The notes below the pieces were generated by a model. It did not search any database and was not told the origin of the DNA. It saw nothing but the letters and a program-made list of their open reading frames with translations. From Eledone cirrhosa (lineage: Eukaryota), in contig OZ024744.1 of assembly GCA_964016885.1 (NCBI GenBank), positions 112,158,001-112,222,000 of the forward strand: a stretch of 64,000 nucleotides of DNA, read 5' to 3'. The stretch's first letter is position 1. Every line of letters begins with the position of its first letter. Below, in pieces: positions 4,988 to 45,938 of this stretch. The position numbers and the translations under genes are program-made.

Positions 4988-5250
4988 TATTTTATCTGAT
5001 GAAAGCATACTATAAATCAGTATCCTTGAAATATATATAATTGTTTCTACTTTTGGCACAAGGCCAGCAATTACCAAGTGCATTACTGGTACTATATTTT
5101 ATCGACCCCGTAAGGATGAAAGGCAAAGTTAACCTTGGCGGGATTTGAACTCAGAATGGCAAGGGCTGTAACTCTATGCGTCAAAGCATGGCATCCGACC
5201 CTCTACCGATACTGCCAATACCCCGCCTTTGAAATATATATAATGAAATA
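4988..5250 (+). ncRNA. type I hammerhead ribozyme motif split by a SINE insertion
   Basis: tattttat-CTGATGA(4996)-aagcatact/agtatcctt stem II-GAAA-tatata-TA-[SINE]-atgaaata. Confidence 0.7.
5042..5228 (-). mobile_element. tRNA-derived SINE family 1 with about 16-bp TSD
   Basis: A-box tggcagtatcgg, B-box gagttcaaatccc, core ctttgcctttcatccttacggggtcgataaaa; TSD ttgaaatatatataat on both sides. Confidence 0.9.
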
Positions 5251-5308
5251 AATGATGATGCTATAGTGATATTTTCCATTTATTACTATTATTATCATAA
5301 TACTCCAA

Positions 5309-5461
5309 GCTTTGCAGCATGGAGTTACGGGCCTTTACGATCTGAGTTCAAATCCCGCTGAGGTTAACTTTGCCTTTCATCCTTACGGGGTCAATAAAAT
5401 AAAGTACCAGTAATGCACTGGGATAATTTCTGGCCTTGTGCCAAAAGTAGAAACAATTATT
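5309..5461 (+). mobile_element. SINE family 1, 5'-truncated, TSD ataatactccaa
   Basis: Same core and 3' tail; flanking direct repeat. Confidence 0.85.
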
Positions 5462-5600
5462 ATAATACTCCAAATAAAATTTCCTTGTAGAGTGCTTCAT
5501 ATCTATTATAAACATAACTTTGTTGAATACTTAACAAAACATATAACTCATTGTTTATATATATATACCCACAAACTCCCTTCAACATATTTATCTATAT

Positions 5601-7392
5601 AGGGTTGACCATCGTTACCTGGATGCAGTGCTCGAGGCGGCAGGCTTCGGACCCGTGTTCAGGGGCTGGATTGCTGCAATGCACAACAGCAACATCCGCT
5701 CAAGGGTCAAGGTGAACGGCTACCTCTCGGAGCCATTCCATATCACGCGATCCATTCGACAGGGATGCCCTCTCTCCTCCCTTCTGTACGTACTGACTCT
5801 CGAGCCACTACTGCAGAAGTTGGGGCTATTGCAGGGCATCCATTTGGAACCGGGACTGCGAAAAGCGGTGTCGGCCTACGCCAACGACGTGACAGTAATG
5901 GTGTCGAGCGCCTCGCAAATCGGGGAGGTCGGCACCTTACTGAAGGAATAGGAAAGGTTCACAGGAGCGAAGCTGAACCAGGACAAATCCGTCGGTTTGG
6001 AACTCGGATCGTGGAGAGGCAAACCGATGCCTTCCGATGGCGTCGTCGGACGCTGGACGGAAGGACCAGTAAAGCTGCTCGGGGTCTGGTTTGGTCCGGA
6101 CCTCCAGGTGGAGAAGAACTGGAACGAGGTGTCGGCCAAGGTGTTTGCACTCACCCAGAAGTGGGCCGAGTGCAAACTATCCTTGAAAGGTCGAGCGGAG
6201 GTTGCGAACACTTTTATAGCGTCCGTCATCTATTACCGCTTGACCGTCGTGCCTTGTCCAGCCAAAACGCTCACCGAAATGGAGCGCGCGATCTTCCAAT
6301 TACTTTGGAAGAAACGGGCTCCTTTGGTGAGAAGATCCATCTGCTGCCAACACCCTTCAAACGGAGGGCTGGGGATGCCGTGGCTGATGATGCGCAAACA
6401 CGTGCTCAGGCTGCGGCACCTCCATGTATTCCTCACCGGACAACCGGTGTGGGCCCCGTTCGTGAGGCGAGCCTTCCCACGACTCTTCTTGCTGATCGAG
6501 CTGCAGTCCTGGGTCAAGCAAAGACCGAGGAAAATGGGCGACTGGCACATCAAATGTGCTCAGGCGCTCACAGTGCTCTGGCCAGTCTGTTCGGAAGGAC
6601 CTTCCGCCCGAGACCGATGGACAACTTCCAAAAGTCCCTGGCCTGGCAGTGCTACCGAGGAAATCTACCAGTTCAAGACAAGCTCTACAGACACGGGCGC
6701 CCAGGCAGAGACCCTTCGAAAAAGATCTGTTCGAGATGTGTGCGCGACGAGGAAACCGTTGCGCATGCATTTGTACACTGCCCGGGTGTTACCGACCTGT
6801 GGGGCTATGTAGAACGACTATTGTCGCGGGTGGGACCAATCGAGTTGACCACCGAGTTCATTGTCATGATCAAACCACCACCCCCCTTCAAAAACGAAAG
6901 AGAGGCGGATTTCCTATGTGTTATGGCTATGGTGAAAGAGGTTATATGGTGGATGAGGTTAAAAGGGCTGAGGTCAGACACCTTTCTCTCCGGTGAACAA
7001 CTGATTTGTTTTTTCAAATATCATTTTGGAAGAAGAATCAGGATGGAGAGAGAGGTGCTGTACCCCAGCAAGTTTTATAAAAGGTGGGTGAATGTGGCAA
7101 AGATGGCCCGAGTGGTTGGGCCTTCTCTCTATATAAGCCTGTAGCTTGAGGAAAAATAGGAAGAGAGGAAGGGAGTACTCACTCTTGGTGCTCCTGGAGA
7201 TGAGGGTTGTACATTTTTTGGGGGTGTGTACAACCCCTGTGTAACGCCTCCCCCCTATTGGGGATTTCAATTGCTATTTGTTATTTTATTAATAGTTTTA
7301 TTTTCATATACCTGTATGTAAACTCCCCATTTGTATTTGTCCCCTTCTTTTGTGCCCTTGTGGCTAATAAAGATATCTATCTATCTATCTAT
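5601..7392 (+). pseudogene. 5'-truncated Tx1/L1-clade non-LTR retrotransposon (RT C-terminus plus zf-RVT)
   Basis: RQGCPLSSLLYVL, AYANDVTV, GGLGMP, CSRCVRDEETVAHAFVHC; in-frame stop and frameshift; ends aataaa plus (tatc)n tail. Confidence 0.88.
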
Positions 7393-8085
7393 CATCAACC
7401 CACCCATGTGTATGTAACTCTCTCTATCATCACCTCTTCCCTTAGTCTAATTGAAGAAGACCGAATGACACAATCCACGGCTAATTAACACAGGAAAGAA
7501 AGTATTTTTATGTATAAAAATTGAAAGTTTCGTCATTACAGGACTGTATCATCATCAGTAGCAGAGATTCCATGGGTTTGTGTGTGGGTTCCATTTGGGA
7601 TAATCTGACTTTCTTTTGTCTTTTGAATTGATGTGTGTAAACATCTGTATATTGATGTGGATGTGTGTGCATGTGTGTGTGTATGGATGATGTTTGGAAA
7701 TCTTGTGCTAGGTGCCAAAAAGTTTTAGGTTCACAAAAGTACCATAATATTTTCTGCACTGGAACCATTACAACATGTGTGTGTGTGTGTAACCATATAC
7801 AGACAATCACACACATATAATTTAGGATTCTTTGTTTTCACTAAATATCATACCAGTGAGTGCAAGATGTAACAAAATATTGACAAAAAAAAAAAAAATT
7901 AAATAAACATTCTTAGTGAAATAAAATTGCAGCAAAGTGCCAGGTTTGGCATGAGAAGCAAACTCCAAAATTTATAGAAATCTTTGTAACAATATACATA
8001 TGTTTAAAGAACAATTGTTTTATAATTAAATTAAGAGGGTTGAGAGTTAGAATGGGATGAAAAAAATCATATTAACTATCTTTAA

Positions 8086-43600: not shown

Positions 43601-43772
43601 AAAAATACATACATACATACATACACACATAGTCTAACCCATGCTATCGTGGAAGATGGACGTTAAACGAAGATGATGATGATGATATATACATACATAC
43701 ATATATATATATATATATATAAAAAAGAAAATTTTGAGCTACGTGGCTGAATACAATAATGGTAATCTGGGC

Positions 43773-43980
43773 TTTTCAAATATTAATAATAACATTCGAT
43801 TCGTTTGAAATTATGCAAACAAGCCTCAATTTTATAGCCATATCAGTAGAATGAACACTTCATTCTTGCTCTTGTGTTGGCATGCGAACAGAAGTGCAGA
43901 CATGGTTGTAAAATTGAGGCTTGTTTGTATAATTGCAAACGAATCAAATATTATTATTAATATTCGAAAAACTCTGATTA
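43773..43980. repeat. imperfect fold-back, about 80-bp arms, flanked by (TA)n
   Basis: aatattaataataacattcgattcgtttgaaattatgcaaacaagcctcaattt versus aaattgaggcttgtttgtataattgcaaacgaatcaaatattattattaatatt. Confidence 0.8.
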
Positions 43981-44016
43981 TATATATATATATATATAAT
44001 ATATATGTATATATAT

Positions 44017-44477
44017 AAAGGAACTGGCATAAATTCTATAAAATGCACACAATGCTGATCCTGGGTACACAAGAGATGTAGCGGGATAGCAGGCAAACTA
44101 ACAGGTAGGGAGAAATACGTATGCAGTAGATGTACAGGGAAATTAGACAGTAGAAGTCGCACTGATAGACACATTTTTCAATAGCGCTATAGAAGTGGTG
44201 GATAGCTTCCGGTACCTAGGAGATCAGATTAGCATGGGAGGAGGGTGTTCCGAGGCCATAGTATCTAGAATAAGGACGGGTTGGAAGAAGTTTAGGGAGC
44301 TGCTTCCTCTGTTGACGAAGAAGGGTTTCTCCCTGCGTACGAAAGGGCGGTTGTATGATGCCTGTGTGAGGAGCGCGATGCTGCATAGTAGTGAGACATG
44401 GGCAGCAACCGCAGAGGACATGCAACAGCTGGAGAGAAATGAGGCAAGTATGCTCCGTTGGATGTGCAGTGTAAATG
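44017..44477 (+). pseudogene. internal RTE fragment embedded in (TA)n
   Basis: Highly similar to 31105-31565, including the same frameshift. Confidence 0.92.
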
Positions 44478-45867
44478 TATATATATATATATATATATAT
44501 ATATATATATATATATATATATATATATATATATGTATATATATATATATATATATCATACATATACACCATACATATATATATGTATATATATATATAT
44601 ACATATACATGTATACCATACATATATATGTATATATATATACATATACATATATACCATACATATATATGATTATATATATATATATACATATACATAT
44701 ATATGTATATATATATACATATACATATATACCATACATATATATGTATGTATATATATATATACATACATACCATATATATATATATATATATACATAC
44801 ATATATACCATACATATATCATCATCATCATCATCGTTTAACGTCCGTGTTCCACGCTAGCATGGGGCTGGGAGGTTTTTACCGTGTTGCCTACACGGCC
44901 ACATTACAGCGTGGACTGTGTGTTTTTTTGTCGTGACACCTACACGACCTCATTTGTTTCGGCCTGGATGTTGTGGCACCAACATAACTTTACATTGAAA
45001 GGGGTGGTGTGGATGTGGTGGGGGTGGTGGGACGGGGGTGTATTTTGTTATACATATATACCATACATATATATATATATATATATATATGTGTGTGTAC
45101 TAATTTTACACTCATACATGTCCACATGTACTACATACACGGTGTTGTTGGTGGTGTTGTAGTGGTGTTGGTTGTAGTAGTGGCGGTGATAGCTGCTGCT
45201 ACTCATGGTGGTAGTAGCGTGGGTGTTGTTTAGCCCCAGGTCAGTATTGGTCCAACAGACTTATGATCAAAGAAAGATGTTCTCCCTGCTGTGAAAACAT
45301 TCCATCTTTTGATTTCAGCCATCTGGGAATACATTACCTAACCTGTCCTTCTTTGGTTTTGTTGCTGCTTAGCCCCAGGTCAGCTGATCCAGTCGACCTT
45401 TGATCAAAGGATACTTTCTTCAGGCATTGTATAACTAGGACTAAATTATCTGATGTATCCCCTACACCCATTTCTTTAAAAAGGGTAAATTTGGGGGAGA
45501 TATGGCTAGTACTCCTATCATGTCAAGCAACCATATAGAGGTTCGCTCGTTTTTTTTGTTTTTTTTTTACTGTTAATACTGATAACTGTTTCTACTTTAG
45601 GCACAAGGCCAGCAATTACCCAGTGCATTACTGGTACTTTATTTTATCGACACCCGTAAGAATGAAAGGCATTGTTTTTGATAGAGATGATGGTAGTTGT
45701 GGAAATGGTGAAATTGTTGAGTACAGGAGTGTCTGTGGTAGAGTTGAAAATAGAGAACATACAAACTGGTGTATCTGTGTATATATATATATATATAATA
45801 TATATATATATATATATATATATATATATATATATATATATATATATATATATAAGAACAAAAGATG

Positions 45868-45938
45868 TATTTTATTATGCGCATTTCAAAAACAAATATC
45901 ATCTTGCAATAATATTTGTGTTTTCATCAGATAAAACA
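45868..45938 (-). ncRNA. family E hammerhead in a truncated element
   Basis: Minus strand tgttttat-CTGATGA-...-GAAA-tgcgca-TA-ataaaata. Confidence 0.78.

What the first reader, a model, noticed from the sequence alone, without database searches (positions are those of the whole stretch)
4988..45938. Structure-preserving variation among hammerheads of families A, D and E
Seen: stem II sequences are unrelated between copies (aagcatact/agtatcctt; aagcacacc/ggtgtcctt; caaatattat/atgatgtttg) yet still pair. Stem III stays self-complementary (ATATATAT, ATATGTAT, ATGCGCAT). Stem I variation is limited to GU wobbles. Within family E, caaatattat/atgatgtttg versus caaatgttat/atgatatttg keeps pairing. 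Established: palindromic stem III is typical of minimal Penelope hammerheads proposed to cleave as dimers. Inference: selection acts on RNA structure, so the motifs were functional ribozymes.
Basis: partly seen in the sequence, partly recalled or inferred. Interest (0 to 1): 0.72.

Follow-up and report, generated by a model that had tools for sequence, protein, structure and literature searches.

The report
Selected hammerhead ribozymes of Penelope retrotransposons
These are copies of a hammerhead (self-cutting RNA) motif carried by tens of thousands of Penelope-like jumping genes; its base pairs were preserved in the parent elements while inserted copies decay at random, so it likely cut the parents' RNA as a two-copy complex, a known kind of ribozyme whose cutting is untested here.

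Summary
The quoted sequences are real, but A, D and E are not unrelated. They form one type I hammerhead superfamily (41,022 exact genome matches, control 0) in the terminal repeats of Penelope-like elements with Hydra-clade protein motifs. Covariation holds beyond the window: all 7 tested stem II pairs show double changes across 26 family representatives (tree-aware null p≤0.0002). Variants shared by ≥3 insertions keep pairing 18 of 21 times, private ones 34 of 118. Selection acted on source elements, not copies: in family E, the wobble-keeping and pair-breaking mirror decays of stem III are equally common (429 vs 415), while an amplified wobble form outnumbers its mirror about 250-fold. The two adjacent middle bases of loop III vary as a pair, which fits only pairing with a second copy (dimer). 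Corrections: family E's two changes are separate wobbles; stem II pair 4 is a conserved mismatch; both family A copies are broken; head-to-head pairs would fold into hairpins, not dimers. Covariation and palindromic loops in these ribozymes are published; the conserved unpaired C was not found in print. Cleavage untested.

The parts
4988..5041 (+). Family A type I hammerhead: stem I 5' strand 4989-4995, core 4996-5002, stem II 5003-5011/5019-5027 (C·C at pair 4), GAAA 5028-5031, stem III to 5038, predicted cleavage after 5039; stem I 3' strand displaced by an inserted repeat
4790..4857 (-). Mirror (inverted arm) copy of family A hammerhead, two core changes, likely dead
5042..5228 (+). Short interspersed repeat inserted into the A hammerhead, 16-bp target duplication 5026-5041 / 5229-5244; displaced stem I 3' strand at 5243-5250
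4741..5556 (.). Whole family A insertion: head-to-head terminal-repeat arms (centre near 4922), two inserted short repeats, one-sided tail about 5465-5556 ending at (TA)n
23860..23924 (+). Family D hammerhead, core intact, stem II C·C at pair 4, loop III AUGU
23678..23742 (-). Family D mirror hammerhead, core intact, U·G at stem I pair 3
23638..24056 (.). Family D insertion: inverted arms 23638-23964 plus one-sided tail, in (TA)n
24665..24735 (+). Family E hammerhead, long stem II with C·U at pair 4 and U·G at pair 10, loop III GCGC
24467..24537 (-). Family E mirror hammerhead
24341..24773 (.). Family E insertion: 99% identical inverted arms 24429-24773, tail on the left, in (TA)n
42102..42172 (+). 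Family E hammerhead, allele with U-A at pair 10 and G·U at pair 11
41905..41975 (-). Family E mirror hammerhead
41859..42299 (.). Family E insertion: inverted arms 41859-42217, tail on the right, in (TA)n
45868..45938 (-). Single truncated family E hammerhead, intermediate allele (Watson-Crick at pairs 10 and 11)

Best explanation
A, D and E are related type I hammerhead motifs from the terminal repeats of Penelope-like retrotransposons, and their pairing pattern is preserved among source elements but not among inserted copies, so they likely cut the source elements' RNA, likely as dimers. Shown: family E lies in both terminal repeats of near-intact RT + GIY-YIG elements and A lies downstream of related ORF ends; double changes in stem II; pair-keeping variation in loop III; structure-blind decay of copies. 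Inferred: a full-length transcript carries two direct copies 3.3-3.9 kb apart; their palindromic stem III strands pair with each other (8 bp) and complete two active cores that cut after A17, trimming the element RNA from a longer read-through transcript. Only sources whose ribozyme still folded left many offspring. The window copies are 5'-truncated, head-to-head insertion products in (TA)n; a read-through RNA would hold one sense and one antisense arm and is predicted to fold into a long hairpin that buries the ribozyme.
For: Element link: tandem hammerheads flank 738-821 aa ORFs in L151, L152, L153 and L157 has one downstream; 32 loci link E, 2 link A and 2 link D-cluster subfamilies to such ORFs; the protein has DKT, a CxCX5C linker and CxxC/CxH motifs and lacks CCHH (against PMC8557442). 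Covariation: 26 representatives, 97.4% of 468 cells paired, 7 of 7 stem II pairs with double changes, 0 of 500 shuffles as high; tree-aware null 204 of 208 paired vs 178±6, p≤0.0002. Shared vs private variants in 337 copies / 261 insertions / 17 families: keep:break 18:3 vs 34:84, p=1.2e-6; transitions only 18:1 vs 34:29, p=9e-4; stem II only 8:3 vs 18:56, p=0.003. Mirror test: AUGU 26,547 vs ACAU 14 of the first 100 of 763 listed, about 107. Neutral copies: GUGC 429 vs GCAC 415, p=0.65; A core intact in 20 of 30 flank-anchored copies, E in 30 of 30. Dimer: the adjacent loop bases L2-L3 are U-A x8, U·G x8, C-G x10 in 26 of 26 (loop null p=0.002-0.005), and closing stem III in a monomer costs +2.9 kcal/mol. 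Geometry in fetched loci: 66 head-to-head, 4 direct, 2 convergent neighbours; hairpins -140 to -270 kcal/mol.
Against: No cleavage data. Three shared states break pairing (A·A and A·C at pair 1 in 6 and 4 insertions; A·G at pair 7 in 3). Pair by pair the tree-aware test is weak: 4 of 9 pairs reach p<0.05 uncorrected, one of them through a null that omits transversions. Single transitions from Watson-Crick pairs in stem II alone are not significant (5:1 vs 13:17, p=0.18). My search patterns fixed or favoured core, stem I and stem III states in many sampled copies, so those tallies are biased; stem II pairs 3 and 5-8 are the clean part. The A and D dimer helices are weak (-3.2 and -2.2 kcal/mol) and their cofold minimum is not the active dimer. 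The commonest pair 1 is A-U, not the G10.1-C11.1 called highly conserved in PMC4209133. The exact D haplotype was not seen beside an ORF. In an anole element, ribozyme mutants did not affect insertion in vitro (PMC11167929, passages).
Confidence: 0.82

Rival explanations
1. Mutation bias, not selection: A-to-I editing of the element's own structured RNA is copied by the RT as A>G, which turns A-U into G·U and looks structure-preserving.
For: All 4 shared variants at A-U pairs of the E ribozyme are A/G, against 9 A/G variants over 396 purines in the non-coding part. One unlabelled run (X6) shows A>G/T>C at 8 sites at 5-19% where another run shows under 0.2%. AUAU to AUGU is also an A>G step.
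Against: It cannot make the second (U>C) step: 7 of 7 stem II pairs show double changes. Element-wide inherited variation is C/T-rich (130 C/T vs 32 A/G), yet only 1 of 21 shared stem states is an A·C mismatch. X6 is not on record as RNA. It may supply first steps but not the whole pattern.
Confidence: 0.07
2. DNA-level hairpin effects (template-switch correction of near-palindromes, conversion between inverted arms, or a palindromic protein site) create the covariation without any RNA function.
For: Copies sit in inverted pairs whose arms often share variants (listings). About 20 of the first 100 listed copies with pair 4 closed come from one family, as palindrome correction might give.
Against: On double-stranded DNA ATGT and ACAT are mirror equivalents, yet they stand at 26,547 vs about 107. 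G·U states are kept and the pair 4 mismatch is closed in only 228 copies. No core change is shared by 3 or more insertions (biased by sampling).
Confidence: 0.04
3. The fold is selected but is not (or not mainly) a self-cleaver: it is a protein-binding or RNA-dimerising signal for the element's RT, with the hammerhead core retained as shape.
For: Stem I sequence is far more conserved than pairing needs (0 double changes). C at stem II position 4 is invariant in 26 of 26 though unpaired. Low in vitro activity of such motifs (PMC4209133) and protein-assisted, dispensable cleavage in vitro (PMC11167929) are published.
Against: The catalytic core letters and the U-H cleavage site are the most conserved columns, and N7, free in hammerheads (recalled), varies freely (U, C, A, G).
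Confidence: 0.07

Closest known systems
Minimal type I hammerheads of metazoan Penelope-like elements (Cervera and de la Pena 2014, PMC4209133; parts 1-2 of 4 read)
   Same: [quoted passage not shown]
   Different: Here no extra base between positions 9 and 10.1; pair 1 mostly A-U; a conserved unpaired C at stem II position 4; 7-8 bp stem I; 2-bp stem III plus tetraloop; over 41,000 copies against 2,000-9,000 reported per genome there.
Hydra-clade Penelope-like elements and their hammerheads (Craig et al. 2021, PMC8557442; passages, outline, and supplement part 2 of 59 with the Hydra sheet and the S2 hammerhead table read)
   Same: C-terminal GIY-YIG, DKT, CxCX5C linker, no CCHH, CxxC and CxH near the end, (TA)n targets, inverted 5'-truncated copy and one-sided tail, canonical hammerhead with palindromic stem III. 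An octopus member (Hydra-1_Obim) is listed.
   Different: RWI rather than RWK; unit 3.3-3.9 kb rather than under 3 kb; by eye none of the 26 Hydra rows in table S2 has the pair 4 mismatch or this sequence, and the listed octopus hammerhead is a different one.
Repeat-type dimeric hammerheads (newt, axolotl, Aedes; PMC3088659 and PMC7229834, passages read)
   Same: Weak stem III with palindromic loop completed in a dimer; very high copy numbers (120,000 in axolotl).
   Different: Those in retrozymes are short direct tandem repeats with loop 1-loop 2 contacts and no ORF; these belong to a coding element and are mostly head-to-head.

Membership tests
Type I hammerhead ribozyme | Core CUGANGA...GAAA...UH joining three stems in type I order | tested here: met
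   D and E window copies intact, A mirror copy not
Type I hammerhead ribozyme | Stems supported by covariation | tested here: met
   stem I by wobbles only
Type I hammerhead ribozyme | Match to an Rfam hammerhead model at gathering score | tested here: not met
   0 hits in the window
Type I hammerhead ribozyme | Site-specific self-cleavage | not testable with these tools
   no raw RNA reads offered; contigs cannot show ends
Minimal PLE hammerhead (Cervera 2014) | Located in pseudo-LTRs of a Penelope-like element | tested here: met
   (E direct; A and D-cluster through 2 loci each)
Minimal PLE hammerhead (Cervera 2014) | Palindromic 15.2-16.2 and loop 3 | tested here: met
   26 of 26 representatives, counting G·U
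Minimal PLE hammerhead (Cervera 2014) | Extra base between 9 and 10.1 and conserved G10.1-C11.1 | tested here: not met
   pair 1 is A-U 18, G-C 5, G·U 1, unpaired 2 of 26, no bulge; so it works like, but is not, the min-HHR consensus
Hydra-clade PLE | Single ORF, RT with C-terminal GIY-YIG | tested here: met
   motifs; Pfam gave no hit for P0001 and only a sub-threshold GIY-YIG hit (E 1.5e-4) for a relative
Hydra-clade PLE | DKT, CxCX5C linker, no CCHH, CxxC and CxH flanking E and N | tested here: met
   read from the translation against PMC8557442 passages
Hydra-clade PLE | RWK motif and length generally under 3 kb | tested here: inconclusive
   RWI; unit 3.3-3.9 kb with a long simple-repeat 3' region
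Hydra-clade PLE | (TA)n insertion, inverted truncated copy, one-sided tail | tested here: met
Hydra-clade PLE | RT phylogeny places it in the clade | not tested
   no named reference proteins among the 37 homologues
Neptune/Nematis PLE | CX2-5CxxC linker and CCHH finger between GIY and YIG | tested here: not met
   my early note calling it Neptune was wrong
Non-LTR retrozyme | Short direct tandem repeats, each with a hammerhead, no ORF | tested here: not met
   4 direct neighbours of 72 in fetched loci; direct pairs seen are kb apart, mostly around an ORF

The most novel reading that the evidence does not exclude
An undescribed hammerhead variant in which an invariant unpaired C in stem II (partner C, U or A, almost never G) docks against the unusually conserved U/A stem I in place of the loop-loop contact, giving an efficient dimeric ribozyme that this retrotransposon lineage needs. 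Its 40,000+ copies form a natural mutational scan showing that dimer cleavage is under selection in Penelope-like elements, and ADAR editing of the element's RNA feeds the first (A>G) step of its compensatory evolution.
Probability: 0.2. Interest if true: 0.65.

Novelty: new member of a known kind. Interest (0 to 1): 0.36.

Why it matters
What hammerheads do in Penelope-like elements is still open: one paper says their function is unclear and they may simply parasitise the elements (PMC8557442), another found cleavage dispensable in vitro (PMC11167929). A motif that cannot copy itself, yet keeps its pairs across many source families while its dead copies decay at random, is likely needed by the element. 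Pair-like variation of two adjacent loop bases is comparative evidence for the dimer model. The young family E, with a near-intact ORF and a strong GC palindrome, is a good test case. The basic phenomenon is already published, which caps the interest.

Tried and rejected
Rfam at gathering score: 0 hits in the window. One search used a mis-sized gap and returned only 37 deletion copies; the two clusters they formed were dropped from the final tallies (still includes them). 'No RNA holder listed' for the E repeat: no evidence either way. Reads could be laid only as contigs, so cleavage ends could not be seen. Extended stem I beyond pair 8: modest support in A and D-type families (z -2 to -3.6) but none in E (z -0.3), so not claimed. 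Neptune assignment rejected. Genome-wide sense A>G bias rejected. Pfam did not recognise the E protein; homologues carried no informative names. Literature searches: Penelope + hammerhead + palindromic + dimer, Naiad/octopus, stem II mismatch, editing (listing only); none showed this motif or a conserved stem II mismatch, but the supplementary figures of PMC4209133 and 58 of 59 parts of the PMC8557442 supplement were not read and could contain it. The bioRxiv retrozyme preprint was read in part 1 of 5 only. Scan look-ups by words and by sequence were empty; the by-place look-up showed 8 of 317 notes, all on a different, scrambled hammerhead. R-scape is not available; stand in for it, with a tree built from about 115 flank and loop columns.
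Full report
Observation. The window lies in a 3.0-Gb animal genome that looks octopus-like from its repeats (recalled, not tested). They belong to five insertions: A (4741-5556), D (23638-24056), E (24341-24773; 41859-42299; 45868-45938). Four are head-to-head inverted pairs in (TA)n with a tail on one side. Rfam finds nothing at gathering score.

What it is. One pattern covering A, D and E has 41,022 exact matches, control 0; family E alone has 12,961 copies with exact flanks. 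Fetched loci show E hammerheads in both terminal repeats around 738-821 aa ORFs (L151, L152, L153, sequence). Such ORFs are linked on the same strand to E in 32 loci, to A in 2 and to D-cluster subfamilies in 2; the exact D haplotype was not seen beside an ORF. The protein has DKT, a CxCX5C linker, no CCHH, and CxxC/CxH near its end, the features given for the Hydra clade of Penelope-like elements (PMC8557442 passages); RWK is RWI, the unit is longer than usual, and no RT tree was made. Head-to-head pairs are the inverted 5'-truncated insertions described for these elements: 66 of 72 neighbouring pairs in fetched loci, with 139 further insertions single within the fetched span.

Is the variation selected? 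I collected 427 distinct copies from 340 loci and the window and analysed 337 copies from 261 insertions in 17 families, dropping two deletion-selected clusters, clusters under 3 insertions and length variants. Variants shared by 3 or more insertions keep pairing 18 of 21 times, private ones 34 of 118 (p=1.2e-6); transitions only 18:1 vs 34:29 (p=9e-4); stem II only 8:3 vs 18:56 (p=0.003); single transitions in stem II alone 5:1 vs 13:17 (p=0.18). Sampling patterns fixed core, stem I and stem III in many copies, so stem II is the clean part. Across 26 hand-picked family representatives, 97.4% of 468 cells pair, all 7 tested stem II pairs have double changes and stem I has none. A null that re-evolves the 3' column on a flank-based tree gives 178±6 of 208 against 204 observed (p≤0.0002), though only 4 of 9 pairs reach p<0.05 singly. 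Three shared states break pairing, two at pair 1.

Where selection acts. Two mirror tests separate sources from copies. The loop AUGU (U·G in a dimer) has 26,547 copies; its DNA mirror ACAU (C·A) is 14 of the first 100 of 763 listed, about 107, scattered over families (counted by eye). In young family E, CpG-type decay gives GUGC 429 and GCAC 415 (p=0.65). So inserted copies decay blind to structure, while the forms that were amplified keep it. Older family A has an intact core in 20 of 30 flank-anchored copies, E in 30 of 30.

Mechanism. The two middle bases of loop III are neighbours and cannot pair within one hairpin, yet they occur as U-A, U·G or C-G in 26 of 26 representatives (null p=0.002-0.005). 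That fits pairing with a second copy. Closing stem III in a monomer costs 2.9 kcal/mol; the 8-mer self-duplex gives -10.5 (E) but only -2 to -3 (A, D). I infer that the two direct copies 3.3-3.9 kb apart in a full-length transcript dimerise and cut after A17, perhaps with help from the element's protein as reported for an anole element (PMC11167929 passages). The window's head-to-head pairs cannot supply two sense copies in one RNA and are predicted to form hairpins of -140 to -270 kcal/mol. Cleavage itself is untested.

Rivals. DNA-level palindrome effects fail on strand asymmetry. A>G bias from RNA editing could supply wobbles (all 4 shared variants at A-U pairs of the E ribozyme are A/G) but not double changes, and the element's inherited variation is C/T-rich (130 vs 32). 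A selected fold with a non-catalytic role cannot be excluded.

What is new. PMC4209133 (parts 1-2 read) already reports covariation, palindromic loop 3, dimer cleavage at low rate and opposite-strand pairs; PMC8557442 lists Hydra hammerheads, including an octopus one of different sequence. Not found in print: the invariant unpaired C at stem II position 4. It is C in 26 of 26 representatives and 353 of 368 copies, partner C 215, U 121, A 17, G none; only 228 genome copies close it, against over 41,000 under a similar but not identical pattern, with about 20 of the first 100 from one family. Its role is unknown; a tertiary contact with stem I is my guess.

Verdict. A real, known kind of ribozyme in a known kind of retrotransposon, with unusually strong population-scale evidence for selection at the source level and for dimer pairing, and one unexplained conserved feature. 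Interest 0.36.

Noticed in passing
L153:9160-9220 (family E ribozyme region), run X6: An unlabelled 88-Mb contig set shows A>G or T>C at 8 sites (5-19%, 15-23 contigs each) where run X1 shows under 0.2%; 5 fit the sense strand and 3 the antisense, all with a 5' U or A neighbour. This looks like A-to-I editing of hairpin transcripts from head-to-head pairs, but the run is not on record as RNA and is a different sample.
   Followed up: partly
window 24881-25365 (cores 25169+ / 25084-): Another head-to-head hammerhead pair with U·U at the base of stem II, a 3-bp stem II and a one-pair stem III with palindromic loop; U·U there is common in published Hydra hammerheads.
   Followed up: no
window 26585(-), 27126(+), 22960(-), 36863(+), 56399(-), 56151(-), 58547(-), 58325(+), 7558(-): Further hammerhead-like cores of other families, some degenerate.
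   Followed up: no
window 10239-10766, 47726-47977, 23101-23404, 43038-43395: Short palindromic (TA)n-flanked repeats with hammerhead-like words; they may be the scrambled hammerheads that earlier scan notes describe in this genome. Not tested.
   Followed up: no
window 5465-5556, 23965-24056, 42218-42299: The one-sided tails of A, D and E share a short conserved motif with hairpin potential and run 80-100 bases, longer than the 30-40 bp tail described for Naiads; a candidate reverse-transcription start element.
   Followed up: no
window 49185-49562 (+) and 61216-62030 (-): Fragments of two other Penelope-like ORFs (the second with GIY-YIG motifs).
   Followed up: no
window 28653-31890 (+), 5609-7144 (+): LINE-type endonuclease/RT reading frames, broken by a few stops or frameshifts; clade names not tested.
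   Followed up: no
family A loci such as L064, L073, L089, L205; loci L014, L230: Subfamilies with A·A or A·C at the first pair of stem II spread to at least 6 and 4 insertions, so a weakened ribozyme did not fully block spread.
   Followed up: partly
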